Source: Naegleria gruberi | Taxonomy: Eukaryota | Length of the DNA stretch: 64,000 nucleotides | Reading direction: 5' to 3' (one strand) | Assembly (NCBI GenBank): GCA_000004985.1 | Contig: GG738904.1 | Shown here: positions 4,841 to 56,480 of the stretch, one piece after another | How positions within the stretch are numbered: position 1 is the first letter of the stretch | How the letters are laid out: each line of letters opens with the position of its first letter | The notes under the pieces: model-generated | Database searches by the model: none | Told to the model about the DNA's origin: nothing | The model's input: only the letters and a program-made list of their open reading frames with translations | Position numbers and translations under genes: made by a program

Positions 4841-7118
4841 TTAGTCAACATCTTCCATGTAATGTCCATCATGATTAATAAATTTCCAATTTTCTAGCAA
4901 TTTATCAATTGACATTCTTTTTGAGGGATCTTTGTGCAATAGCCCACAGAGAGTTTCCTGTAACATTGTTGTTTGTCTATCACTTAGCTCAGGATATTTG
5001 TGAACGAGTTCATCAATAACTTCATTAATAAATGAGTGAATCGCTTCATGTGAATCATGAGCAGCAACCCATTCACCAAATCCAATTAGTTTTTCATATT
5101 CTTGATTGGTGTTTTCATGAAAACATTTCATCCTTTTCATAACAAGCTCTTCAGATCCATTGTAATTAAGCAGGAATTTTAGAATTAATAGAAGAATATT
5201 AATTCCAACACTCCAAGAATCCATTCTAAACATAAAATTTGTGTGGATGATTCTATTTCCAAAATTATATTTGCAGTAATAAGATTCTGGTGAATTTACA
5301 AAGTCTGTTCCAGTTGTGGGAAGAGAAATAATAACTTTGTCATTGAAAATCTCCATGTCTGAAACATCAATTGATTCCTCAAAATCACAGAATAATAATG
5401 TAAATATCTCATTAACGAATTTAGATAATAAATTATCTGATTTGGTATCCATGTGAACTATATTAAGAGAATGCAAATCCTTAACACAGAGACATATTAA
5501 TTCAACCTTGTTAAGGAAATCGGTAATGTTAGATATTTTGTTTTTTTCTAAATATTTAGAAAAATCAGCTTCACATCTCTCCATTAAAACAAATTTCATT
5601 TCTGAACCGTCGTCGCTGAACGCATGACCAGCCCTCAAGACTTTCACTAAATATTGTTTCTTATGTGTTAATAATTTCTTATATATTTCTTCGAAATTAT
5701 ATGAGTGATCCATTGGAATTGTTTTCAAATATTCACTTTCACTATTTACACATTCTTTAAGCTCTCTTAGTGATATTATGTCTAATTGCTTTTCTTTGTT
5801 TTCTTCCATCTTTTTGAGAACAGTATAATGACTCAAATGTTGTAATTGATCAATAGATTCAATACGAGATCCAAGAGGTTCAATTAAATATTCCAAAGAC
5901 TGGTCATTAAATATTTCTTTACATTTTTCTATTAGTTTTTCCAAATCCACACCATTGAGCATTACAACATGTTGTACTTCATTGAGGTAATGTACAAAAA
6001 TGTATCGAATAGTTGAAAATTCATCCCACATGGGAGCCACAATTATTGTTTCCTTCTTGATAAGTTTCTTCCAAACTATTGGATCACACTCAAGTTCTCC
6101 AAAATATGGATCCGTTAATGATGGAAAGGAATTCATTTCTTGATAGATTTGTCTTGCTTTTCCTCCTTCACCTATCGACAGGTTTCTTATAATTTTATAT
6201 ACAAATCCTGCCTTACATTTAGGGTCAATACACAAAATGTTTTCAATGCATTGAATTGCATCATTAAATTCTCCTAAATTTAAATGGCAATTTGCCAATA
6301 GTAACCGAATACCAGTTAAAAAATTCAAATCTTTCAAAATTTTGTAAAAGTAGGTTTTTGCACTTTCAAAATTTCCAATTTTGTAATAATCTAAAGCAAT
6401 TTGAAAAATGCTCTCTATATAGTTTGCAGTTATTATCGTACAGTCTGAAAATTCAGTTGTGTTCTTCTTAATAAATTTCTTTGAATCAATAATTGATTCT
6501 ATAATTTTCAGACATTGCATTCTTGTTAGTTCGCGACCTTTAATTTTCATTATTAAATCAATCAGTTCAAAATCAATTCCTCTTTTCTCCAATTCATGCT
6601 CTATATTATCTGAATCTATTTCCTCTCCAAAAACAAAATTATTTTCTAATTTCTTAATTCCTCCAATCTCTTCAAAACTTGATACTTCAAAATCTGTTAA
6701 TCTGATTATTGGAAATTCTATTGGATTAATATTCAATACTATAAAATTATTTACGCTAATATCGTAATGTATAACTTTATGCCACGGCCTTGTTTGTGTT
6801 AAATAATTTTTCAAGAATTTTAGTAATTCATCTTGACCAAAATTCGAAACTGAAACTAATCTTGGGATCAAGTGCTCGATCTCCTCGTTATCAAATTCGA
6901 AAACATAATCCAATGTATTATTCAAAATGATTACTATTTCCGTGTGGCCCAAGTTATTCGCAAGATCTATCAATGCTTCAATTTCATGATTAGCAAGTTC
7001 CGATCGAGCTAAGAACCTCTTTCAATTTTTCTGGATTGTTTTCGTTCACACAATCAATACAATTTTGAAAGACTGAAGAATGGATATTCTCCAAGTTTGA
7101 CAACTGTTTTTCTGTCAT
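4841..7118 (-). CDS. ankyrin/TPR plus degenerate protein-kinase-like (pseudokinase) protein; 5' end unresolved
   Basis: The main ORF is 4841..6973. Its N-terminal region is ankyrin-like (LIDLANNLGHTEIVIIL). The middle is TPR-like (IALDYYKIGNFESAKTYFYKIL..LGEFNDAIQCIENIL). The C-terminal is a kinase fold with altered motifs: HMDTKSDNLL in place of HRD, CDFEES in place of DFG, then SWSVG and HKDPSKR. The ORF opens at a TTG with no ATG for about 130 codons. The upstream ORF 6990..7280 (ATG at 7118) lies in another frame, so there is either a 1-nt frameshift or an unresolved intron between about 6975 and 7020. Confidence 0.5.
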
Positions 7119-10772: not shown

Positions 10773-12263
10773 CTAAAGTTTTAACGAAGTCATGGATGAT
10801 AAACTGATCATTGGAGATCTTGGTGATAGCCTCTTTTGCTTTGCATTCCAATCATTTGAAACTTTCTGAATGGTCTTGTTAGAGAATTTGAGTCTTGAAT
10901 AGGAATCTACCAAGTTGCTCAGCACGTGAAGTTGAATATCGGCAAATAAATCATCTGTTAATGCATTTTGATTATCTGCAAAACTAATATTGTCCATAAT
11001 TACGGTCTTTACAGAATAGAGATCAGAGGGCAAATTCAATTGGAAAGGTGAATCTTCGTACAAGTATTTCTTTACCATTCGGTGTGCAATTTTCTTTCTT
11101 TGCCTTAATGCTGTTTCACGTTTATATTTCTCAATATCAGCATAGCACAGCAAATTTTCAGGGCAAAACGACTTTCTCAAATAATCCAAGAATATTTGAA
11201 ATGTTTCCTTATTGGAAATTATCATTTCAATTTCTGAATCACATTCTCTTTTTTCTTTTGAATCTGCATGGATGGCTCTAATTATAGGAATTAAAATTGT
11301 GAGAACCAACTCGAATGTACTGTAAGCTGCAACTACAAATCCAGAAGGAACGAAATAGTCCACAATCTCTACCACTGAAGCAACACTTAAAAATGTAAAG
11401 ATTACTGCAGTCAAGATTTGAGTGGCAACCAAAAGGAAAACTTCCCTCTTAATATGCCAAGTATCATTGTCAACAGTAAAGCAAAGTCCAATAGCAATAA
11501 ATTCCACAATAAAATAGCAAATACTAATTCCCACAACAAATAGAGTTGAGGGAAACCCTAACCCACATCCTTTTCCAAGTGAAATCAAGAGTGCTCCATC
11601 CATAAAGTAATGTTCATTTTGGAAAAAGCTATCCTCTACTACCATAAGCACAAACCACAGAAAGAGTTGGACTCCAATGGAAAGCCAAAATACTATGAGA
11701 GATGCTGTATTGTTGGTGAGAATGGAGTGTGCCTTGATGATGAATTTCTCTCTTGTCGTATTCTCTTCACGAGCTATAACTTGATTATTTTCAAAAGTTT
11801 CCACAACAGATGTCATGACTGATGAATTGACATTCCTATTACTAGTTGATATACTGTTGTTATTACTATTGTTGGAATTTTGTTTGGCTTGAATAAACAA
11901 GCTCTCTGTGTTCTGTTGTTCTTGTTGCATGCAATAGGAGCTTGATAAAGTGTTTGTCTTTATCAAATTGAATCTGTGCTGAAATACTAATCGCAAACAC
12001 CTCAATATTGAAGGCATTGCAAAACAAGGAGGAATTGAATAGCTAACAATACTAAATATCATACAGGGAAATCTAGATCTACCAACCGTAAAACGGAGAA
12101 GAGTAACAGATACATAGATAAAACTCCCTGTTAGTGTAACTACAATACCACTGATGGTACGTGATTGAAGATGTCCACTTTTCCTCTTCTTTATCACTCC
12201 TATGGCACAAATAACAACAAGAATGATGTACAAAACCAAACATGTTGCTGATAATATTGGCAT
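10773..12263 (-). CDS. 7TM receptor-RGS fusion protein
   Basis: Seven hydrophobic helices at the N-terminus. The C-terminal RGS domain reads ETFQIFLDYLRKSFCPENLLCYADIEKYKR...HRMVKKYLYEDSPFQLNLPSDLY...SYSRLKFS. ATG at 12263. Confidence 0.7.
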   Translation of the reverse strand: MPILSATCLVLYIILVVICAIGVIKKRKSGHLQSRTISGIVVTLTGSFIYVSVTLLRFTVGRSRFPCMIFSIVSYSIPPCFAMPSILRCLRLVFQHRFNLIKTNTLSSSYCMQQEQQNTESLFIQAKQNSNNSNNNSISTSNRNVNSSVMTSVVETFENNQVIAREENTTREKFIIKAHSILTNNTASLIVFWLSIGVQLFLWFVLMVVEDSFFQNEHYFMDGALLISLGKGCGLGFPSTLFVVGISICYFIVEFIAIGLCFTVDNDTWHIKREVFLLVATQILTAVIFTFLSVASVVEIVDYFVPSGFVVAAYSTFELVLTILIPIIRAIHADSKEKRECDSEIEMIISNKETFQIFLDYLRKSFCPENLLCYADIEKYKRETALRQRKKIAHRMVKKYLYEDSPFQLNLPSDLYSVKTVIMDNISFADNQNALTDDLFADIQLHVLSNLVDSYSRLKFSNKTIQKVSNDWNAKQKRLSPRSPMISLSSMTSLKL

Positions 12264-18734: not shown

Positions 18735-20153
18735 TTACACTTCAAATGTTGAATAATTTAAACAAGCATCCAATATAAATTCCTTATCCAATAAAAAGTG
18801 GTCCCTTATGTATAATAGGCATGTATAATTGTTTTGTATACATTCCCTGACAAAAGATCGATTCAAATCCATTGAATTTCCAACTCTTAATAAAACCATT
18901 GCGTCCTTCTTAATTGCCTCCAACATGAGTTCTCTATCCTTATAAATTTCAGGATAATTAATATTGGATGGGACGAATCCAAGTCGAATAGCTTCCTTAG
19001 CATCGTTTTTATCCTTCGATAACGACAATTTATCATTCCAATATTGTAACATATTTCTTTCAATAGACCATTCCTCCTCAGTGGATTGATCATCAACTTG
19101 AGATTGGAATTCATCCTGAAGCCTCTTAGAGGCATGGACGATAGCATGTCTATTCTTTGAAATTGCCAATTGTACTATTTCTGTATCATCTCTAAATCTA
19201 TCTGCATATCTCAGAGATAGAGGGTTCTTTCCAATAGCTTCTTCCACTATTTCTTTATCATATTTCAATGGTTCTTCAACATATCTCAATAAATCTCCAT
19301 CCTTCCTTAAAGCACACAAAACAATTTCTCTATCGTATCCTCTAATCATCTTACTAGCAAACCGAAACTCTGCCGAATTCTTCTTAACACTCTCCAATAC
19401 TATTGTTCTATTTTTACGAATTGAAATATCCACATACTCCAAAATCACTGGCTTTCTACTCCTCTCAATATACTTTATCACAAACTCTTCACTTCTTAAA
19501 AACTTGAAAAGTCCATCCAATTTCAATGGTTTTCTTAACATGGCTACCATTGCCATTTCTTCATCAATGATTAGCTCATTTGCAAATTCAATTGCATACT
19601 CATTCCTATACACAGCTTTCATCATGAATTGTTTGTTCCCTAATAGTGATTTATCAGTATAATTGAGAATATACTTGTTCTTCTCAACCAAGTTCAATAA
19701 AACATCTTCATACAAGCTAAACTCAGGCCAAGTTGTGAAAATGTGTTCAGTAACTCCCCGAGAAGGTTGGTTTTTGGAATTTCTCAAAACAGCCAATATT
19801 ATTTCAACCTCAGCTTTCAAATGTTCTCCTATAAACCAATAGGCATCTGCATGACTTTTGACAGCAATCAAAGCAAGTTCTCTATCATTCTGAATATCAT
19901 CCCTCAAATGTTCCATAAATAATCCACAATATTCCAACAATATCTTTATAAACTCTCTCTTTTCCATTAATTGATTCGGTATTTCAATCGTTGTTGAACG
20001 TCTATATTTTCTACAATAAATATACGAAACAATTTTGAAATATTTCAATTCTCGCTGAATGAAAAAGTAATTTCGGAATAAATTTTTCAACCATTCACTC
20101 TTAAAATTGACATCAAGAATAATAGAAACTCTATCACCAGCACGATCACACAT
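18735..20153 (-). CDS. DUF4116-repeat protein
   Basis: At least five tandem repeats of about 36 aa of the D(R/K)E(L/I)xLxA(V/I)..n..a(l)xya. type, for example DRELALIAVKSHADAYWFIGEHLKAEVEIILAVL, DREIVLCALRKDGDLLRYVEEPLKYDKEIVEEAI and DRELMLEAIKKDAMVLLRV. ATG at 20153. Confidence 0.6.
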   Translation of the reverse strand: MCDRAGDRVSIILDVNFKSEWLKNLFRNYFFIQRELKYFKIVSYIYCRKYRRSTTIEIPNQLMEKREFIKILLEYCGLFMEHLRDDIQNDRELALIAVKSHADAYWFIGEHLKAEVEIILAVLRNSKNQPSRGVTEHIFTTWPEFSLYEDVLLNLVEKNKYILNYTDKSLLGNKQFMMKAVYRNEYAIEFANELIIDEEMAMVAMLRKPLKLDGLFKFLRSEEFVIKYIERSRKPVILEYVDISIRKNRTIVLESVKKNSAEFRFASKMIRGYDREIVLCALRKDGDLLRYVEEPLKYDKEIVEEAIGKNPLSLRYADRFRDDTEIVQLAISKNRHAIVHASKRLQDEFQSQVDDQSTEEEWSIERNMLQYWNDKLSLSKDKNDAKEAIRLGFVPSNINYPEIYKDRELMLEAIKKDAMVLLRVGNSMDLNRSFVRECIQNNYTCLLYIRDHFLLDKEFILDACLNYSTFEV

Positions 20154-20436: not shown

Positions 20437-21660
20437 TTATTTCTTCTTCTTGGCAAAGAAGTTACCAGAAGAAACCTTCTTTTCATCCACTGAAGTCAAA
20501 TTAGAAAGCTTATCCGAAACTTGGCATGAAGCAATTCCTTCGTCATAGAGTGAAAACCATGGATAATTATTCTCCTTATATGTTTTCTTAGAGATTGGAG
20601 TAGGTGGACACTCCTCTCCAGTAATTTTCTTCCACATTTCACTATTCACAATGTGGACGAAACATTTGCCAGCTGCAGTCAAATCCCAGAACGATAATCC
20701 AAAAGGATCCTTATAAATCTTTTGCTCAATTCTTCCACCAACACCCAATCCCATCTCCATTCCATCACTTTCGTCTTCGGTTACAGGTCCTCCTCCTCTC
20801 AATCTCAATACCAAATGAAGTACACCTCCATTTGTAATGTTGTAATCTTTCAATGTTCTTCCATCTTCCAATTGTTTACCAGCGAAAATCAATCGTTGTT
20901 GATCTGGAGGAGTTCCATCTGCCATCTGAACTGCATACTTGACATCTTCAATTTGATCATTTGAATCTGTATAAACAACAATAGTTTTACCTGTTAAGGT
21001 TTTGACCAAAACTTTCATGGATCCACCACCAACAGTTCTAACTTGTCTTTCAAGTGGTAAATGTGAAAGTGCATCTTTTCTTGCTTGATAAATCCTAAAT
21101 TGAATTCCACCATAATCAGCATTTCCAGTCAACTGTTCCTCAACTGTTTTTCCACTTCCAAGTGGCATGGCAACAAATTGCTTGACAGTTGTTTCATCAC
21201 AAGCAATTCCATCAATCCATAATTGATTAGGGAGAACCATATAGTTTTGTTTCTTATTCTTTCCAAAATCTGATTCATCCCATTCATCTCCAGTGAGTGC
21301 ATTGATCATTCCAACTCCCATTTGAACAGCAAGTGGGAAATCATTGTTGGTTACATCTGATTGACAGAATGGCATGTTGTGGAAACTATTCGAATAGGAA
21401 AATTGAATCCACATGGCTTCACTCTGATATAATGGAATGAATACTCCACCATGTTCTAACCAATGGGCAGGAACTGTTTTTGAATAATCTTCTACTCTCT
21501 TTATTGGAAATCTACCTAAAGAGCATGGAAGAGGATAAGTTTTTCCATCATTGGGAATTCTCAAGGTTCTATGGAAGGAAATTTCTAACGAAGAATCAAA
21601 TAGACGGAGAGAATGTTCTTCATTGACAGTTATTGGAATGTTATGTTCTTGTACGAGCAT
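20437..21660 (-). CDS. protein with an internal ubiquitin domain
   Basis: Residues around 225-300 read [77 protein letters not shown]. That is a canonical ubiquitin fold with the diglycine tail, embedded between roughly 220-aa N-terminal and 105-aa C-terminal regions with no recognisable family. ATG at 21660 in an A-rich context. Confidence 0.6.
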
Positions 21661-22166: not shown

Positions 22167-23294
22167 ATGTTCGCAACTCATAACCACAACAATAATCAAT
22201 TCGTGCGTACTTCTCAGTATGAAGAAGAGGAAAATAACGATGTAGATTATCAAGGAGTTACCCATGTGCGTAGAATGATACCCATCATATTCAACAATCA
22301 AGAAGTTGGATATGAAGCCTTCGTATCAGAGGCAGGTGCTTCTTTCGATCAAGGAAATTCTTCTTCCTCATCAGCCACTACACCGTTCGCCTATGATGAT
22401 GAATATGATGATATCTCTCCAGAAGAGCAACAAAGGTGTCCAACCATGCTCATATACTTGAAGGGTTCTAATGGTGTCAAACGTAAAATTCTACAGGATA
22501 TTACTTGGGAATTATATCATTTTGATGGACTCATGATGCGTATCGGAAAACTCTTCCCACAAGAAGAACAAGTGAAAATTTCATGTGTAATTGGTAAATC
22601 ACGAAAAGTTGCCATTCAAAACGACGATGATTGGCAGCATGCTCTCCAACAATTGCTTTTAAATGATGAAACTATGATCAAGATATTCATCAAGAGTCAA
22701 AATCAACACCAACAGTCAAAAAAGAAGAATAAGAATCTCCTTCAAAAGATTGTTGACAAACAAGAAAAACAACAAGCAAGGAAACACTTTAAACAAGACG
22801 CTCTCATTGATACTTCTTCCATCAGGAATGTTTACATTGATGCTGGTAGTATTCTTCTCCACGTCCGTGATTTGAAGAGTCTTGCTTTTAACAGTGACAA
22901 GGATATTGCAGAGAAGACACTCCTCCGACTTGCAAAATCTCTCCATCAAACCGAATCATTCAACCACGTACACGTTTTCTTCAACTCCACCATGAATGTC
23001 CAACCAGAAGAGAATGAAGCAGGTACATTTGTTGTATCTATTGCTGAACCATTCTCCACTTCTGGTGACTTGATGAAGGAATTTTTAAACAGACAGATTA
23101 TAGCTGGCGCTTTGGAATCTTGTCTGGTTGTTTCTTGCGACCGTGTATTGTTAAAGGATTTGAATGATTATGGTGATGTGAAGGTTTGCAATGCTCGTTC
23201 TTGGTTTCGAATTTGTCAACATTCTGATGAGTTGATGATGACTAATAATCATAACAATTCCAAGGATTGGTTGAGAAATATATTAGTGAAATAG
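22167..23294 (+). CDS. hypothetical protein with a possible PB1/ubiquitin-like fold region
   Basis: 375-aa ORF with ATG at 22167. The segment MLIYLKGSNGVKRKILQDITWELYHFDGLMMRIGKLF...ISCVIGKSRKVAIQNDDDWQHAL resembles a PB1-type beta-grasp. The assignment is weak. Confidence 0.45.
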   Translation: MFATHNHNNNQFVRTSQYEEEENNDVDYQGVTHVRRMIPIIFNNQEVGYEAFVSEAGASFDQGNSSSSSATTPFAYDDEYDDISPEEQQRCPTMLIYLKGSNGVKRKILQDITWELYHFDGLMMRIGKLFPQEEQVKISCVIGKSRKVAIQNDDDWQHALQQLLLNDETMIKIFIKSQNQHQQSKKKNKNLLQKIVDKQEKQQARKHFKQDALIDTSSIRNVYIDAGSILLHVRDLKSLAFNSDKDIAEKTLLRLAKSLHQTESFNHVHVFFNSTMNVQPEENEAGTFVVSIAEPFSTSGDLMKEFLNRQIIAGALESCLVVSCDRVLLKDLNDYGDVKVCNARSWFRICQHSDELMMTNNHNNSKDWLRNILVK

Positions 23295-32644: not shown

Positions 32645-34396
32645 TTATTTGGTCGGAATTTTAAGTGAATCCAGATTCAAATCACTTCTCAAATTCTTCA
32701 CCTTATTACTCTCAAACTTGACCTTATTCTTCTTAACATGTTGCTTTTGAGTTTGTTTCTGAAATTCCACAGTTTGCTTGAATCGATGATGAGTATCCAA
32801 CATCAAGACACATATTTCACTTTCCACATTATCAAACAGAGTATCAGTCAAATGTTCATTCTCACCACTTGCAAAGTAATCCAATTGTTCCTTAACTCTA
32901 TCTGCAGCACTCTTATTAATATTCACTGATTTGTCTCCATTGATATCGAGGAAATCAGTGTAAATTTCAAAGGCAATTTCGTACTTTTTCTTTTCAATTT
33001 CATGGAGATCCTTCTCAGTGTAGCCCTTCTTCTTCTTCTTTTTGTGTTGATGGTCCAAGTTGGAGGAGTTGGCAGTTGCAGAGCTACCTGAATCGGAGAG
33101 AGAATCAGAATGAGAATTTGGACTCATGTCATCATAGAGGAATACTTGAATTTCAAAGGACTTTTCACACAGGATTTTGTAATCTGTAATTTTGTCCAAT
33201 AGTAAGTAATTATCCAAACTCAATTCTTGTTTACAATGGTCCCTGAATAGCTTTCTCAATTTGTTATCCCTCATAGTATCCATCAAGAGGAAGGCGTTGG
33301 CTGCCTTGAGCTTTTTCGTATTACTTGCATCCTTTCGAATAGAGACAATGATTGAGGCAATCACTGATGGCAACACAATGCAAATGGAAACACACACCAC
33401 AATGAGTGAAATTGTAGTGATGGTTACATTAACGCTTCGAGAACTATCTTCCAATTCATTCAGATAGTCAACTGTTGGCTGGAATTCTTCACTGTATCCT
33501 GCAATGTCATATTTGTAAGCGTCAGATTCTAATAACGTCATGGCATATGAATAGTTTCCAATATTTGCCAATTCTAACATTTGAGTTTCAAGAGCAATGG
33601 CCTTGGAAGTTCTCAAATCAGCAACTGAAACATTATGAGTATAGGTATATCGCAAATTAGTTGGCAAATAGGCCAACATTTTCGTAATTTCAGTATTGAA
33701 CTTGGTCTTACTCGTTTCGTATTTTGCAGTATAATTGGCTGTCAGTTGCAAATTGTTATTGGTATAGACAGATGATCTGCAAGCTGCCACCATTCTTTCT
33801 CTATACAATGTAATGTTCAAATCCATACTACCAATTGCTGTTTGTAATTCCGAGTTGACCACATAGTAAGCCACAATCAGGATAAGAAGAGCCATAAAGG
33901 CAAGGAAATTTACAATAAGGGAACTCAAATTCAAAAATTTGACAGGAGTCAATTCAATCGTGGAACCGAAACAAGTTCTAATTTTGAGCATGGTTGTGGA
34001 GGAATGACTTTTAGTGGTAGTCTTTGAACCAATACCAGAGGCAGATCTAGGTTGTTTCTTCTCACCATTATATGGATTACCAGTTGCCACATCATGTTCC
34101 TCAGCAAAATTGGCATTTCTATTCGATTTGTCCATCAGAGCCATCGATCTCATCTCAATGGACACAGAACTGGACTGATGCAAATGATTATTATCATGAG
34201 ATTGCAAAGAACTCGTCGAAGTATTCAAATCAGTTGGCAAATGATGAGAACCATTGGCATAAAGTGAATAATCACAATTATTTGGATCAATTTTGTGAAG
34301 TTCTTCAATGACATTTTGGATGGTTGACTTTTCATGGAGTGAATTCGAAGGAGTGGAAAGAGAAGGATGTTCTGTGATATTCTCTTGTTGCTGCAT
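32645..34396 (-). CDS. two-TM sensor-type RGS-domain protein
   Basis: The first ATG is at 34396 (MQQQENITEHP...). TM1 is LIVNFLAFMALLILIVAYYVV, followed by an extracytoplasmic domain of about 190 aa, then TM2 ISLIVVCVSICIVLPSVIASIIV. The C-terminal RGS domain reads LRKLFRDHCKQELSLDNYLLLDKITDYK...EIAFEIYTDFLDINGDKSVNINKSAADRVKEQL...ICVLMLDTHHRFKQT and carries a low-complexity insert. Confidence 0.6.
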   Translation of the reverse strand: MQQQENITEHPSLSTPSNSLHEKSTIQNVIEELHKIDPNNCDYSLYANGSHHLPTDLNTSTSSLQSHDNNHLHQSSSVSIEMRSMALMDKSNRNANFAEEHDVATGNPYNGEKKQPRSASGIGSKTTTKSHSSTTMLKIRTCFGSTIELTPVKFLNLSSLIVNFLAFMALLILIVAYYVVNSELQTAIGSMDLNITLYRERMVAACRSSVYTNNNLQLTANYTAKYETSKTKFNTEITKMLAYLPTNLRYTYTHNVSVADLRTSKAIALETQMLELANIGNYSYAMTLLESDAYKYDIAGYSEEFQPTVDYLNELEDSSRSVNVTITTISLIVVCVSICIVLPSVIASIIVSIRKDASNTKKLKAANAFLLMDTMRDNKLRKLFRDHCKQELSLDNYLLLDKITDYKILCEKSFEIQVFLYDDMSPNSHSDSLSDSGSSATANSSNLDHQHKKKKKKGYTEKDLHEIEKKKYEIAFEIYTDFLDINGDKSVNINKSAADRVKEQLDYFASGENEHLTDTLFDNVESEICVLMLDTHHRFKQTVEFQKQTQKQHVKKNKVKFESNKVKNLRSDLNLDSLKIPTK

Positions 34397-35352
34397 TTTG
34401 GGAGGTGATTGAGTTGGATTGTTTTTTTGAGTTTGGATATTCAATAGTATGGAGGGTTATTAATATCACAATAGTTTTGAATAGCTTGTGTGTGATAAGA
34501 AGATGAAGATTAAATGTGCGCGCTGTTGGGTTAATGTAATAGAGCATGTAAGAGATTGAGAAAAGGAGTCCTTCATCTTATTTACAATTAGTTTCGTACT
34601 TCTAACAACTCCATTGGAAACTGGTTGGAAAATTCCCAAATTCAAACATTCAAGCATTGCAGCTTTGTTAAATATCAAACATAAAAGTCATTTGTAAAGT
34701 ACGTCCACTCTTTCGCGCACTAAATTTTTGACTCATGTGAAAAATCGATGGTCAATTGTTACGTTCTTGCATGAAGCGGTATTTTAAAATTAAGATCCTC
34801 ATGTGGTAAAGTAAATGAGAATTTGTTGATTTGGAGACATTTTAGGAAGATGACAGTTCTCCCATAACGAAGAAGCGTACTGATTGAAATTGTTCTTTGG
34901 TTTCGAATAATGTTAATATTACTGTAGTTTAATGTTAGAACTGTAGTTTCTGTTCACTGTGAAATATTTCCGCCACCAACACTTACTGCAACAAAATTAC
35001 GTAGAAATCACACTCGGGATGAAAAGAGATTAATCTCCACTGGTATTTTAAAGTAATATTTAATTATTCGAATGGTTTCTTATTCTATAACTAAGGTCAA
35101 ATTACTTGCCGATTTTAGAACGTCGACATTCGGCGAAAGAGAGATTGAGCCGAATAACAAAACTTTCCATAAATTTTCACTGCATGACCAATTTATTTGA
35201 TATTGGAAACTGATATTGACGCAGACGAAACAATTCTTCACTCGCATTACATTGTTTTGTGTGGATATACTTGTCTAATTTTCTTCTCTGGATGTAATTT
35301 TCATCTACAGTGAACCCAGTCGAAACTGTAGATTGATGGTTTGTTGATTCGT

Positions 35353-53801: not shown

Positions 53802-56480
53802 ATGGCACCAAACAAAAACAGCAGCAACAATACACAAAATTCGAAGGCTTGGCATTCGGTGAGGAGAGCCTCCCAATCAACACAACAACCCAGTTTAGCC
53901 ATAGAGGATAGTGTGGATTTGGGAGCAGTTTGCGAAACTCCAGTTACAGCCAAAACACCCATTCGGGAAGCTTTCGAAAATATTGGAAATTATAGTAAAT
54001 CATCAACATCACAAAAGAAGGCTTCTTCATCGTCATCACAGAATGCTCGGAAGCAACAACAAGAAGAGGAATCACGAAAAGATGACGGTGATGGAGAGAT
54101 GGAATTTAATTTCTCTGATTTGGAAGAGGATGAAGATAAATCAGAGAAGAAACAAGAAGAACAATTCGAACGATCGCCAGTGTTCTACTCATCGGAGAGT
54201 GATGCACCTCCAACAAAAAACACCAAATCAAAGAAAACCTATCAACCAACACAGGAGCAAGCATCTGAAAAGGAAGAAGATGAAGAAAAACAAGCAAAAC
54301 AATCATCTAAATCAATAGTCAGTGGTAGTAGTAAACAACGTGCTTCTGACTATTCTCAATATTTCACACCAGATGAGGATGAAAATGAAAAGGAAAAGGA
54401 AGGCTATTCTTTGAGGAAAACTCCAACAAGAGTCTATCAGGAAAAGAAGAAGAGGAAAAAGATGATAAAAAAGAAGGAAATTTTGATCAGTTCCGATGAA
54501 GAGGAAGATGGTCAAACTTTGAGGAATGATAAAATGTATGATAGTGACGAGATACCTGATGAAGATATTGAAGCAATGGAAGAACAAGAAAGAGCTAGGA
54601 AGAGGAAACAACCACAAACTGAGGAAGAAAGAAGAGAACGAGAAAAACAAGAGGAGGAGAGAAAGAAGGCCGAACTGAAATTGAGGAAAAAGAAATTGAC
54701 AGAACTTTCAAATTCAATGAGAAAGAAAAATCAACACAAATCCATTTATATTGAGGAGGAGGATGAGATTTCAAAGGATTTATTTTCGAGTGGAAAGAGA
54801 AAGTCAACATTTGATGATGATGAGCTATTCTCTCAGCCATCATCTAAGGAAGAAAAAGAAGTCTTCTCCTCTCCAAAGAAGAGACTAAAGAAGAAGTCTG
54901 GTAGTCCAGTCGGTTCAACAATCACATTCGACAAGGAGGATAGTGATGATGCCAATAGTGAAGAGTTGGAAAATTTAGCAAAGGAAATTAGAGAAAATAA
55001 TCTACTTTTGTCTGCTAAAAAGAAGAAGAAACCACTCAGTCTAAAAACTCAAAAAAGAAAGTCACACAGTAGCTCAGAAGAGGAAGCTCCACGAAGAAAA
55101 TCAACAAGTACTAGAAAAGGTAGAGATCAAGACAGTGAAGATGAAGATGATGGTATGGTTACCATGAGTCAATTTATTGTAAGTGATGAGGAAGAGGATG
55201 AAGCACCTGAATACAACGTCTATAGAATGGTCGACATGATGGAAAATGATATGGATTCACAAGAGTTCCACTCCATTCTCACAAGTAATACCAGACTCTC
55301 CTCAGATTTCAAATCTTCCTTTGCAATCTATATTCATTTTATCACTTCACACTTGCTGGATGAGGATTTTATTCAATCTCTCAAATTTAAAGATAGAACT
55401 CACTTTGCTAATGCCTCAAAAATGGTGGAAGGTAAATTGGAAACGGTCAAGGACAGCTTAATTTATAGCTCAGCTTGGAAATCGAGACACAAGAACCTTC
55501 TCCAATTCTATCCAATCATTAAGGCTAGAGAAATTTCTCTCAAGGATACTGAAATTGACAATAGCGACAAGTGTTGTCAAGCTTGTGGCAGAAAGAACCA
55601 TCAAGCTGAATATACACTCATATTCAAACCACCAAGAGCTACCACTAAATATGAATTTTCATCCGGAGCTCACATCAACTGGATAGATTCACCAGAGGAA
55701 GATTCGGAGGAGGATAATGATTTTATTCAACTCTCACAAAGAAGAGCAGTAACAGGTAAAAAATGTAAATATACTAAGGAGAAGTCATTCGTTGGATCGA
55801 CCTGTTACAAACGATCCTTATTGTACCATAGTTTCCAACATTACAAATTCCATTTAATTCAACATATTATCAACAAGATTGACAAGATTGCCACCAATTT
55901 TGAAGGAGAAGAAGAAATTACAAGCGACTATATTTTGGACAAGATTGTTTCTAAAAAGAGTTGGATTGAATCACTCTACAAAAAGTATCTCAAATTAATT
56001 GAGGAAGCAGAGGCTAGTTATACCAAATCGAAGGATGCTGGAGTTATTGATGTGGTTGATGAATTATTCGATGTCTATGATTCAGAGGAGGAAGTAATCA
56101 ATTCAGATCCAGAAGAAAAGGACAATGACTTTATTGTTACCAACACACGTGGAGGACTTCGATTGAAACGAACCAAACCAAAATCAGATGATGAGCAAGA
56201 TCAAGACGATGCTGAGCTCATTGACACCACAGAAGAACAAATACCTCCTCAAAAGGAAAAGCCAAAACAACCAAGAGAATTGAAATTATCATTTGCAGTT
56301 TCTCCCATTCCTGTTGAAGACGATGAAGAAGATAAAGAGCTTGACTTTTTGGATAAGGAAGAAGACATTCCAAAACCGCTCTCACCAAAAGAAAATTCAA
56401 AAAAGACGGAAGAGAAAATCCCAGATTTGAGTGGATATCTTGACTCGTCAGATGACGACATTCTCAATTATAATTTTTAA
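53802..56480 (+). CDS. highly charged (E/K/S/D-rich) protein with Cys-containing C-terminal domain
   Basis: 892 aa with ATG at 53802. The N-terminal 450 aa are low-complexity, acidic and basic. The C-terminal folded region contains CCQACGRKNH and FQHYKFHLIQH. No confident family assignment. Confidence 0.55.
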   Translation: MAPNKNSSNNTQNSKAWHSVRRASQSTQQPSLAIEDSVDLGAVCETPVTAKTPIREAFENIGNYSKSSTSQKKASSSSSQNARKQQQEEESRKDDGDGEMEFNFSDLEEDEDKSEKKQEEQFERSPVFYSSESDAPPTKNTKSKKTYQPTQEQASEKEEDEEKQAKQSSKSIVSGSSKQRASDYSQYFTPDEDENEKEKEGYSLRKTPTRVYQEKKKRKKMIKKKEILISSDEEEDGQTLRNDKMYDSDEIPDEDIEAMEEQERARKRKQPQTEEERREREKQEEERKKAELKLRKKKLTELSNSMRKKNQHKSIYIEEEDEISKDLFSSGKRKSTFDDDELFSQPSSKEEKEVFSSPKKRLKKKSGSPVGSTITFDKEDSDDANSEELENLAKEIRENNLLLSAKKKKKPLSLKTQKRKSHSSSEEEAPRRKSTSTRKGRDQDSEDEDDGMVTMSQFIVSDEEEDEAPEYNVYRMVDMMENDMDSQEFHSILTSNTRLSSDFKSSFAIYIHFITSHLLDEDFIQSLKFKDRTHFANASKMVEGKLETVKDSLIYSSAWKSRHKNLLQFYPIIKAREISLKDTEIDNSDKCCQACGRKNHQAEYTLIFKPPRATTKYEFSSGAHINWIDSPEEDSEEDNDFIQLSQRRAVTGKKCKYTKEKSFVGSTCYKRSLLYHSFQHYKFHLIQHIINKIDKIATNFEGEEEITSDYILDKIVSKKSWIESLYKKYLKLIEEAEASYTKSKDAGVIDVVDELFDVYDSEEEVINSDPEEKDNDFIVTNTRGGLRLKRTKPKSDDEQDQDDAELIDTTEEQIPPQKEKPKQPRELKLSFAVSPIPVEDDEEDKELDFLDKEEDIPKPLSPKENSKKTEEKIPDLSGYLDSSDDDILNYNF

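What the first reader, a model, noticed from the sequence alone, without database searches (positions are those of the whole stretch)
20437..21660. Ubiquitin domain with intact LRLRGGG tail embedded in the middle of a 407-aa protein
A near-canonical ubiquitin reads [13 protein letters not shown]...[11 protein letters not shown]. Residues corresponding to Ub K48, K63, G76 and the diglycine are present. About 220 aa of N-terminal and 105 aa of C-terminal sequence of unknown family flank it. An internal Ub with a cleavable GG could be processed by DUBs into two products, or the protein may be a Ub-fold insertion. Neither architecture is the standard Ub-ribosomal or polyubiquitin fusion.
Basis: seen in the sequence. 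Interest (0 to 1): 0.55.

Follow-up and report, generated by a model that had tools for sequence, protein, structure and literature searches.

The report
Ubiquitin inserted inside a Naegleria protein
A Naegleria gruberi gene really does carry a complete, cleavable-looking ubiquitin in a flexible linker of a soluble protein of bacterial type, but this "ubiquitin-IMP fusion" architecture was described in many eukaryotes in 2019 and its function is still unknown.

Summary
ORF 20437..21660 (-) encodes 407 aa with a Pfam ubiquitin domain at aa 215-290 (E 7.6e-23) ending LRLRGG-G. It is 67% identical to ubiquitin. One detail is wrong: K63 is Asn. The window is Naegleria gruberi, and the protein is XP_002671620.1, annotated 'predicted protein'.

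The flanks are not two unknown families. They are the two lobes of one widespread ~340-aa bacterial and eukaryotic protein. It has no Pfam model and no transmembrane segment, and no PDB relative was found. Ubiquitin sits in the variable inter-lobe linker.

The same N-lobe-Ub(LRLRGG)-C-lobe layout occurs in Clastostelium, Entosiphon, a transcript labelled 'Hpha', a fungus and metagenomic sequences, often with a C-terminal RING. It matches the 'ubiquitin-IMP fusions' of Sibbald et al. 2019 (87 species; ubiquitin internal in most fungi).

The I44 patch, residues 40-52 and the tail are fully conserved, while the opposite face has drifted. AlphaFold places the Gly-Gly bond in a flexible segment.

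Best inference (about 0.55): deubiquitinases cut after G290. This would give a 32.6-kDa N-lobe-Ub with a free tail and a 13.1-kDa C-lobe. The main rival is an uncleaved built-in ubiquitin signal or degron.

Verdict: already known architecture, function untested, modest interest.

The parts
20437..21660 (-). Whole gene: 407-aa intronless ORF plus stop codon. It equals Naegleria gruberi XP_002671620.1 / EFC38876.1 / NAEGRDRAFT_73333 / UniProt D2VWC5, 'predicted protein'.
   Evidence: ORF list. 100% identical representative P0121, with its accessions and names.
21019..21660 (-). N-lobe of the 'IMP'-type family (aa 1-214). It carries the motifs [46 protein letters not shown] and GGIQ.
   Evidence: 4089 homologues at E<=1e-3, mostly ~340-aa bacterial or metagenomic proteins with no Pfam domain. 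Alignments A1 and A2. pLDDT above 90 over most of aa 25-200.
21337..21399 (-). Lineage-specific surface loop (aa 88-108), absent from most homologues, disordered in the models and hypervariable between two Naegleria isolates.
   Evidence: Insertion relative to the family in A1. pLDDT below 50 for aa 92-105. 9 nonsynonymous and 0 synonymous differences against L003.
20791..21018 (-). Inserted ubiquitin domain (aa 215-290), 67% identical to ubiquitin, ending LRLRGG.
   Evidence: PF00240 at E 7.6e-23. Residue-by-residue comparison. Confident beta-grasp fold with pLDDT 81-95 once ubiquitin-bearing homologues are in the alignment.
20788..20796 (-). Predicted scissile site: codons for G289-G290 (ubiquitin G75-G76) and G291 (P1').
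   Evidence: Sequence RLRGG|GPVTEDE. It lies in the flexible segment aa 288-298, pLDDT below 50. Cleavage itself is inferred, not shown.
20440..20790 (-). Acidic linker (aa 291-301) plus the C-lobe of the family (aa 302-407). It carries the motifs MGLGVGGxxxQKIY, FVHIVNS and YPWFSLYDE, and lacks the family's usual last ~30 aa (..PLQD..VRDGxW).
   Evidence: Alignment A1. pLDDT above 90 for aa 301-390. No remnant of the missing tail downstream in any frame.

Best explanation
The gene encodes a ubiquitin-IMP fusion of the internal type. A single, diverged ubiquitin is inserted into the flexible linker between the two lobes of a soluble beta-sandwich protein that eukaryotes share with bacteria.

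The most likely mechanism is that the ubiquitin works as a host-processed cleavage module. Cytosolic deubiquitinases recognise its conserved I44 face and LRLRGG tail and cut after G290. This would convert the 45.7-kDa precursor into two chains:
- a 32.6-kDa N-lobe-ubiquitin chain with a free Gly-Gly C-terminus;
- a 13.1-kDa C-lobe starting GPVTEDE.

Nothing on the N-terminal side of the ubiquitin is cleavable, so no free ubiquitin would be released. That would explain why this copy has been free to drift to 67% identity.

The two lobes probably stay associated as in the single-chain bacterial homologues. The freed tail could then be activated and conjugated, or used for regulated turnover. RING-bearing relatives suggest a self-contained ubiquitylation module.

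Shown: the architecture, homology, conservation pattern, predicted flexibility and recurrence in other lineages. Inferred: cleavage, continued association of the lobes and conjugation.
For: 1. A genuine ubiquitin domain with an intact tail, followed by Gly and not Pro.
2. Mosaic conservation. Tail 6/6, I44 patch 4/4, residues 40-52 13/13 and R42/R72/R74 are kept. The beta2 loop (3/11) and helix (5/12) have drifted. The independent homologue P0122 shows the same pattern.
3. LRLRGG followed by a small residue (G or A), 5-11 residues before the C-lobe motif MG[LI]xxGG, is kept in P0122, P0195, P0134, P0240 and the fungal P0371. In P0134 and P0240 the rest of the internal ubiquitin is degenerate.
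4. AlphaFold models ubiquitin as a confident bead between two low-confidence strings, aa 205-211 and 288-298. The Gly-Gly bond is therefore exposed.
5. The N- and C-lobes are modelled as one confident unit (pTM 0.74-0.75), and they form a single chain in about 340-aa homologues.
6. No signal peptide is apparent from the sequence (my reading, not a prediction tool). No transmembrane segment: maximum KD19 is 1.12. The protein should therefore be cytosolic and reachable by deubiquitinases.
7. Purifying selection. Outside one loop there are 14 synonymous against 5 nonsynonymous differences from a second isolate, and none of the nonsynonymous ones is in ubiquitin.
8. Established knowledge: linear Ub-X fusions are cleaved by endogenous deubiquitinases unless X is Pro or G76 is mutated (PMC9703124). 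An internal ubiquitin acts as a processing signal, cut by cellular hydrolases, in cytopathogenic pestiviruses (PMC8310069).
Against: - No experimental or proteomic evidence of cleavage was available.
- The ubiquitin is only 67% identical, with F4L and I36T changes, so some deubiquitinases may not accept it.
- The Clastostelium homologue P0164 ends LRLRGC. If that is not a transcriptome error, it should not be cleavable, so cleavage cannot be universal in the family.
- In P0134 and P0240 the ubiquitin body before the tail is degenerate, which would weaken deubiquitinase recognition.
- Continued association of the lobes and conjugation of the N-fragment are pure inference.
- The biochemical function of the IMP body is unknown.
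Confidence: 0.55

Rival explanations
1. The ubiquitin is not cleaved. It acts in cis as a permanent, hard-wired ubiquitin signal. That signal could be a ubiquitin-fusion-degradation (UFD) type degron keeping the protein short-lived, or a docking surface for ubiquitin receptors, p97 or E3 ligases, as in integral UBL-domain proteins.
For: - A ubiquitin placed between two domains of a model substrate triggers ubiquitylation and degradation through the UFD pathway (PMC9703124).
- The I44 patch and K48 are conserved.
- The Clastostelium homologue has LRLRGC, which should not be cleavable.
- Relatives carry RING and UBA-like modules typical of ubiquitin-system scaffolds.
- Bacterial homologues sit behind an XRE-type regulator in toxin-antitoxin or defence-like neighbourhoods. 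This hints that the body may need tight control, which a built-in degron could supply in eukaryotes.
Against: - Integral UBL domains normally lose the Gly-Gly tail. Here LRLRGG plus a small P1' residue is kept across Fungi, Amoebozoa and Discoba.
- The site lies in a flexible, exposed segment. From established knowledge, such linear fusions are cut unless G76 or P1' is altered.
- K29, important for UFD chain initiation in yeast (my knowledge), is Ala here.
Confidence: 0.28
2. The insert is a functionally neutral relic: a piece of a polyubiquitin gene that landed in a tolerant linker and is slowly decaying, with no role of its own.
For: - The ubiquitin has drifted to 67% identity and lost K29, K33 and K63.
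- The host protein is itself a relaxed family member. It lacks the conserved C-terminal tail and has changes at nearly invariant positions such as P147L and Y171K.
- N. fowleri and N. lovaniensis have only the ubiquitin-less form among detected homologues.
- The linker is the most variable part of the family and tolerates insertions.
Against: - Drift is not uniform. The interaction face and tail are 100% kept while the other face changes, and an independent homologue shows the same pattern.
- The same junction is conserved in distant eukaryotes.
- There are no nonsynonymous changes in ubiquitin between two isolates, and the gene as a whole is under purifying selection.
Confidence: 0.1
3. The architecture is an artefact: a chimeric ORF from misassembly, or a read-through of separate genes.
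For: None found. Considered only because ubiquitin genes are abundant and easily misjoined, and because a GGATCC site sits exactly at the junction before the ubiquitin ATG.
Against: - One continuous ORF in genomic DNA.
- An independent metagenome contig has the same 408-aa architecture with 28 scattered substitutions.
- Transcriptome-derived homologues show the same order of parts.
- The codon and GC composition of the insert matches its surroundings (my reading of the sequence; window GC profile).
Confidence: 0.02

Closest known systems
Ubiquitin-IMP fusion proteins (Sibbald, Hopkins, Filloramo & Archibald 2019, BMC Genomics 20:38; PMC6332867)
   Same: - Ubiquitin is fused in frame to a protein similar to bacterial proteins annotated 'integral membrane protein'.
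- The paper reports patchy occurrence in 87 eukaryote species. Ubiquitin is N-terminal, C-terminal, poly, split, or a monomer inside the IMP (most fungi).
- Here I see the internal type in Naegleria, P0122, Clastostelium and the fungus Cenococcum, and the split type in Entosiphon and 'Hpha'.
- The N. gruberi ubiquitin-less paralogue is named 'bacterial integral membrane protein-like protein'.
   Different: - The paper gives distribution and phylogeny only.
- I found no discussion of processing, of the tail or of function.
- It keeps the 'membrane protein' label, which the sequences do not support.
- I could not verify that this particular Naegleria protein is in their data set; the held supplement has no sequences.
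Ubiquitin-ribosomal protein fusions (Ub-eL40, Ub-eS31) and polyubiquitin precursors
   Same: An in-frame ubiquitin with an LRLRGG tail followed directly by another polypeptide. The expected processing chemistry (deubiquitinase cleavage after G76) is the same.
   Different: - Those have ubiquitin at the N-terminus, and it is nearly invariant because it feeds the free ubiquitin pool.
- Here ubiquitin is internal, 67% identical and single-copy, and it cannot be released free because its N-terminus stays attached to the N-lobe.
Cellular ubiquitin insertions in cytopathogenic pestivirus polyproteins (BVDV Osloss, CP1, CP Rit)
   Same: A captured host ubiquitin sits inside a larger polypeptide and serves as a processing signal. 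Cellular ubiquitin C-terminal hydrolases cut after Gly-Gly to release the downstream protein (PMC8310069).
   Different: - That case is viral and recent, arising from RNA recombination, with near-identical host ubiquitin.
- Here the gene is cellular and ancient, and is conserved across eukaryotic supergroups.
Integral UBL-domain proteins with RING or RBR modules (parkin, UHRF1) and engineered internal ubiquitin UFD substrates
   Same: A ubiquitin fold inside a larger protein. Some relatives of the window protein also carry a RING finger. An internal non-cleavable ubiquitin drives UFD degradation.
   Different: - From my knowledge, those UBLs lack a functional LRLRGG tail and are not processed.
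- The window protein keeps the tail and has no RING.

Membership tests
Ubiquitin family (Pfam PF00240) | Significant match to the family HMM over the full beta-grasp domain | tested here: met
   E 7.6e-23, 80.5 bits against a cutoff of 25.4, profile positions 1-72 of 72. Confident beta-beta-alpha-beta-beta...beta fold in model 2.
Canonical ubiquitin (the conjugated modifier itself) | Near-invariant sequence (from my knowledge, above about 95% identity across eukaryotes) with all seven lysines | tested here: not met
   51/76 = 67% identity. K29A, K33A and K63N.
Canonical ubiquitin (the conjugated modifier itself) | C-terminal LRLRGG with L8/I44/H68/V70 and R42/R72/R74 | tested here: met
   All are present.
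Ubiquitin-IMP fusion, internal type (PMC6332867) | The fusion partner is homologous to the bacterial 'integral membrane protein'-annotated family | tested here: met
   - The N-lobe has 4089 homologues, and both lobes align to ~340-aa bacterial proteins.
- The N. gruberi paralogue P0147 carries that name.
- Identity with the paper's IMP set is inferred from the name, the matching internal and split arrangements and the fungal junction P0371. It is not based on their sequences.
Ubiquitin-IMP fusion, internal type (PMC6332867) | A ubiquitin monomer located within the IMP protein, in frame | tested here: met
   Ubiquitin aa 215-290 lies between the N-lobe and the C-lobe, in the family's variable linker.
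Integral membrane protein (the name attached to the flanking family) | At least one hydrophobic transmembrane segment | tested here: not met
   The maximum Kyte-Doolittle 19-residue mean is 0.53-1.16 in eight members, below the usual ~1.6 threshold. The models are all-beta with short helices.
Ubiquitin-ribosomal fusion / polyubiquitin precursor | Ubiquitin at the N-terminus followed by eL40 or eS31, or head-to-tail ubiquitin repeats | tested here: not met
   214 aa precede the ubiquitin. There is a single ubiquitin copy in the ORF and the window. The flanks have no ribosomal-protein match.
Processed ubiquitin-fusion precursor (functional class) | Cleavage after G76 by deubiquitinases in vivo | not testable with these tools
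   Only sequence and model features can be assessed: GG followed by Gly, and a flexible segment at aa 288-298.
Integral (type-2) UBL-domain proteins | A ubiquitin-like fold without a functional di-glycine processing or conjugation tail (from my knowledge) | tested here: not met
   The tail is intact here and in 5 of 6 homologues with a readable tail.

The most novel reading that the evidence does not exclude
After deubiquitinase cleavage, the N-lobe-ubiquitin chain would be a cargo-carrying ubiquitin. Its free LRLRGG tail would be charged by E1 and E2 enzymes, so that a 214-aa domain of bacterial ancestry becomes covalently attached to target proteins. In relatives, the C-lobe-RING chain would serve as the dedicated ligase.

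The whole module would descend from a bacterial two-gene cassette, an XRE-type regulator plus an IMP-like effector. That cassette looks like a toxin-antitoxin or defence element, so eukaryotes would have replaced the bacterial regulator with ubiquitin-based control.
Probability: 0.1. Interest if true: 0.7.

Novelty: already known. Interest (0 to 1): 0.33.

Why it matters
As an architecture, it does not matter much. The protein has been in public databases since the N. gruberi genome was released, and internal ubiquitin-IMP fusions were catalogued in 2019.

What remains open is function, and it is cheaply testable. A prokaryote-derived, soluble beta-sandwich has no Pfam model or detectable PDB relative. 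It has been coupled to ubiquitin again and again: N-terminal, split, internal, and with a RING. The cleavage and conjugation tail has been kept over very long evolutionary distances.

This work adds several points:
- The 'membrane protein' label is wrong.
- The two flanks are lobes of one fold, with ubiquitin in the linker.
- Conservation of the ubiquitin is mosaic and points to use by ubiquitin-system enzymes.
- Bacterial homologues usually sit directly behind an XRE-type HTH gene.

Together these give a concrete hypothesis for a family of thousands of uncharacterised proteins.

Tried and rejected
1. Pfam, NCBIfam, PADLOC and PHROGs scans of the flanks and of bacterial homologues gave no family. 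The only hits were a sub-threshold Rad23 match through the ubiquitin and one chance-level PADLOC hit.
3. The exact-sequence look-up of the window protein and its two neighbours returned nothing. Identification came instead from the exhaustive representative search and the cluster look-up.
4. The C-lobe alone and a C-lobe profile as word-indexed queries returned only short fragments. The search seems biased towards short proteins, so I could not enumerate named fungal full-length members.
5. A neighbour-joining tree of 151 N-lobes was star-like. Ubiquitin-bearing members did not form a clade, so single versus multiple origin of the insert is unresolved, as in the published tree.
6. I searched for the family's missing C-terminal tail downstream of the stop codon, as a possible intron or frameshift. 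No remnant was found in any frame.
7. I rejected the idea that GGATCC before the ubiquitin ATG marks a cloning artefact. The second isolate has the same gene, and the site occurs 11 times in the window.
8. Natural splitting of bacterial homologues into N- and C-lobe genes would support two-chain assembly. L009 looks split exactly in the linker, but L008 is multiply frameshifted. Both come from ERZ250395xx/ERZ250394xx metagenome assemblies that may carry indel errors, so this is not used as evidence.
9. A literature search for the protein's accessions found no paper.

Full report
**1. Observation**

The minus strand of the window carries one uninterrupted ORF, 20437..21660, of 407 aa. Pfam places a full-length ubiquitin domain at aa 217-288 (PF00240, E 7.6e-23, 80.5 bits against a cutoff of 25.4). 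PDB ubiquitins match at about 1e-28 per unit.

The ubiquitin runs from M215 to G290 (window 20791..21018). It reads [76 protein letters not shown] and is followed by GPVTEDE.

Identity to canonical ubiquitin is 51/76, or 67%. K6, K11, K27, K48, L8, I44, H68, V70, R42, R72, R74, G75 and G76 are kept. The flanks are 214 and 117 aa. The window holds no other copy of ubiquitin or of the flanking protein.

**2. Source and reality of the gene**

The window is AT-rich (about 33% GC). It encodes typically eukaryotic proteins: RGS domains, a protein kinase, DUF4211 and a DUF4116-repeat neighbour.

The exhaustive representative search returned a 100% identical 407-aa protein, P0121. The cluster look-up names it Naegleria gruberi XP_002671620.1 / EFC38876.1 / NAEGRDRAFT_73333 / UniProt D2VWC5, 'predicted protein'.

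A second, independent copy lies on an ENA metagenome contig (P0271 / L003; 97.9% nucleotide identity) with the same architecture. The two copies differ by 14 synonymous and 14 nonsynonymous changes:
- Nine of the nonsynonymous changes, and no synonymous ones, fall in one surface loop (aa 88-108).
- Outside that loop the counts are 14 synonymous and 5 nonsynonymous.
- The ubiquitin segment has 1 synonymous and 0 nonsynonymous changes.

The gene is therefore real and under purifying selection.

**3. What the flanks are**

The flanks have no Pfam or NCBIfam model. The N-terminal 214 aa find 4089 proteins at E<=1e-3. These are mostly ~340-aa bacterial or metagenomic 'hypothetical proteins' at 42-54% identity. 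They also include N. fowleri (P0014, 370 aa) and N. lovaniensis (P0029, 367 aa).

Alignment shows that these ~340-aa proteins contain both flanks: the N-lobe, a short variable linker and the C-lobe. The window protein differs by having the 76-aa ubiquitin exactly in that linker (alignments A1, A2). So this is a domain insertion into one protein, not a ubiquitin between two unrelated unknown regions.

The window protein is a somewhat relaxed family member:
- It lacks the family's last ~30 residues (..PLQD..VRDGxW), with no remnant downstream.
- It has an extra loop at aa 88-108.
- It departs from nearly invariant positions, for example P147L and Y171K.

N. gruberi also has a ubiquitin-less paralogue elsewhere in the genome. 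This is P0147, XP_002678627.1, 'bacterial integral membrane protein-like protein', which groups with the N. fowleri and N. lovaniensis proteins.

**4. Structure**

AlphaFold2 with 115 family sequences gives pLDDT above 90 for both lobes and pTM 0.75, although the ubiquitin was then poorly modelled. This indicates that the two lobes form one rigid unit.

Adding ubiquitin-bearing homologues to the alignment gives mean pLDDT 84.4 and pTM 0.74. The ubiquitin becomes confident (pLDDT 81-95) with the canonical strand-strand-helix-strand...strand order. The only low-confidence segments are aa 1-6, 92-105, 205-211 and 288-298. The ubiquitin is thus a bead on two flexible strings, and the Gly-Gly|Gly bond sits in one of those strings.

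**5. The insert recurs**

The exhaustive search used aa 1-250, chosen so that polyubiquitins would not swamp the list. It gave 3078 representatives at E<=1e-3. Scanning the best 150 with ubiquitin picked out further family members with ubiquitin after the N-lobe:

| Protein | Source | Length | Features |
|---|---|---|---|
| P0122 | Logan contig | 420 aa | N-lobe-Ub-C-lobe, ...LRLRGGAPDP |
| P0164 | Clastostelium recurvatum transcriptome | 670 aa | ...LRLRGCGDPP |
| P0195 | metagenome | 786 aa | ...LRLRGGGDPREE, C-terminal RING |
| P0134 | Entosiphon sulcatum transcriptome | 684 aa | N-terminal ubiquitin 1-56, a UBA-like stretch, then N-lobe, a degenerate ubiquitin ending [22 protein letters not shown]-lobe, RING |
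| P0240 | 'Hpha' transcriptome | 752 aa | same split layout, LRLRGGANF, RING |
| P0202 | metagenome | 390 aa | truncated |

A fungal fragment from Cenococcum geophilum (P0371) reads ...[15 protein letters not shown]...EMGIAAGG, that is, a ubiquitin tail followed by the C-lobe. An Amanita rubescens fragment (P0388) is C-lobe plus RING.

In every case the tail ends 5-11 residues before the C-lobe motif MG[LI]xxGG. The residue after Gly-Gly is Gly or Ala, never Pro.

**6. Literature**

Sibbald et al. 2019 (PMC6332867) describe 'ubiquitin-IMP fusions', where IMP means similarity to bacterial 'integral membrane proteins'. They report:
- 87 eukaryotic species in a patchy distribution, including 63 of 88 fungi;
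- ubiquitin that is N-terminal, C-terminal, poly, split around the IMP, or a monomer inside the IMP, the last being the rule in fungi;
- a tree that includes Euglenozoa, other Excavata and Amoebozoa, in which fusions and stand-alone forms, and eukaryotes and bacteria, are interspersed.

Four things tie the window protein to that class: the Naegleria paralogue's name, the internal and split layouts I observe, the fungal junction and the unresolved phylogeny. I could not confirm this from their sequences, because the held supplement has none. I found no discussion of processing or function in the paper, and no paper mentions this protein's accessions.

**7. Mechanism**

Conservation within the ubiquitin is mosaic:

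| Region | Residues identical to ubiquitin |
|---|---|
| Tail 71-76 | 6/6 |
| I44 patch | 4/4 |
| Residues 40-52 | 13/13 |
| R42, R72, R74 | all kept |
| Beta2 loop 12-22 | 3/11 |
| Helix 23-34 | 5/12 |

P0122 shows the same pattern independently. This is the face and tail used by E1 enzymes, deubiquitinases and most ubiquitin receptors (my knowledge).

Linear Ub-X fusions are cut by endogenous deubiquitinases unless X is Pro or G76 is mutated (PMC9703124). Internal ubiquitin works as a processing signal, cut by cellular hydrolases, in cytopathogenic pestiviruses (PMC8310069). The protein has no transmembrane segment and no apparent signal peptide (my reading), and the site is exposed.

I therefore favour cleavage after G290 (confidence about 0.55). 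This would yield N-lobe-ubiquitin (32.6 kDa, free Gly-Gly) and the C-lobe (13.1 kDa). The N-terminal junction (..TVGGGS|M) follows a non-ubiquitin domain, so free ubiquitin would not be released. That fits the drift to 67% identity.

That the lobes stay together, and that the freed tail is conjugated, are inferences. The RING fingers in relatives make a link to ubiquitylation plausible.

The main rival (about 0.28) is an uncleaved cis signal or UFD-type degron. An internal non-cleavable ubiquitin between two domains is a UFD substrate, and the Clastostelium protein ends in Gly-Cys. A neutral relic (about 0.1) is disfavoured by the mosaic conservation and the recurrence. An artefact (about 0.02) is excluded by L003.

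**8. Bacterial context (side finding)**

In five of six bacterial loci examined, the homologue is directly preceded on the same strand by a 117-124-aa XRE-type HTH gene (PF01381/PF13560), with a gap of 10-60 nt. The surrounding genes vary and include PemK, Uma2, WYL, SNF2 and AAA_14/DUF4143. The Labilithrix locus lacks the HTH gene. A seventh locus, L009, has the HTH gene followed by what looks like a split version of the homologue.

This looks like a two-gene toxin-antitoxin or defence-type cassette. PADLOC and PHROGs do not know it.

**9. Verdict**

The feature is real and correctly located. The architecture is a published class, the protein is in public databases, and nothing here overturns current understanding. 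Novelty: already known. Interest: modest (0.33), resting on the untested function of a large uncharacterised family that is repeatedly wired to ubiquitin.

Noticed in passing
L004 4613-6038; L005 337-1704; L006 4634-6023; L007 2566-3960; L009 2084-3530; P0114 locus (no DNA): Bacterial homologues of the flanking family are almost always directly preceded, on the same strand with a 10-60 nt gap, by a 117-134-aa XRE-type HTH gene (PF01381/PF13560). The neighbourhoods vary and hold PemK, Uma2, WYL, SNF2 and PDDEXK genes. This looks like an undescribed two-gene toxin-antitoxin or defence-like cassette. PADLOC and PHROGs have no model for it.
   Followed up: partly
window 21337-21399 (-), aa 88-108: A lineage-specific disordered loop carries 9 nonsynonymous and 0 synonymous differences between the window and a second Naegleria isolate (L003). 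The rest of the gene shows 14 synonymous and 5 nonsynonymous differences. The loop is a local hypervariable or positively selected patch.
   Followed up: partly
window 21019-21024 (-), also 20705 and 20241: A GGATCC (BamHI) site encodes the Gly-Ser immediately before the ubiquitin start (..GGGS|M), and two more lie within 800 bases. It looks like a cloning junction, but the second isolate has the same gene, and the site occurs 11 times in the window.
   Followed up: yes
window aa 200-214 (about 21019-21063, -); P0164 aa 442-463; P0122 aa 225-230: The residues just before the inserted ubiquitin end in small Gly-rich motifs (GGGS, GAGS, SGGP). In Clastostelium the preceding stretch ITLSEYGIVNGSVLHCAASGG aligns to ubiquitin 54-76. 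The original insert may have been more than one repeat of a polyubiquitin gene, with the first repeat now degenerate.
   Followed up: partly
P0134 (Entosiphon) and P0240 ('Hpha'): These are 'split' forms. Ubiquitin residues 1-57 lie at the N-terminus (plus a UBA-like stretch in P0134). Hundreds of residues later come the N-lobe, a degenerate ubiquitin body that keeps only IQKESTLHxVLRLRGG, the C-lobe and a C3HC4 RING finger.
   Followed up: partly
L009 2501-3530; L008 1931-2896: In L009 the bacterial homologue is divided exactly in the inter-lobe linker into two ORFs that overlap by 8 nt (..SDA* / MPDMGLAPGG..). This could be a natural two-chain version or an indel error. L008 is multiply frameshifted.
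   Followed up: partly
window 18735-20153 (-): The downstream neighbour is a 472-aa protein made of seven DUF4116 repeats (E 8e-62). The upstream neighbour (22167-23294, +, 375 aa) has no Pfam match. No functional link to the ubiquitin gene is evident.
   Followed up: no
window 10773-12263 (-) and 32645-34444 (-): Two separate RGS-domain proteins lie in one 64-kb window, along with a TPR-kinase (4841-6973, -) and a DUF4211 protein (53802-56480, +). I believe this fits the expanded signalling gene families of Naegleria, but I did not check that.
   Followed up: no
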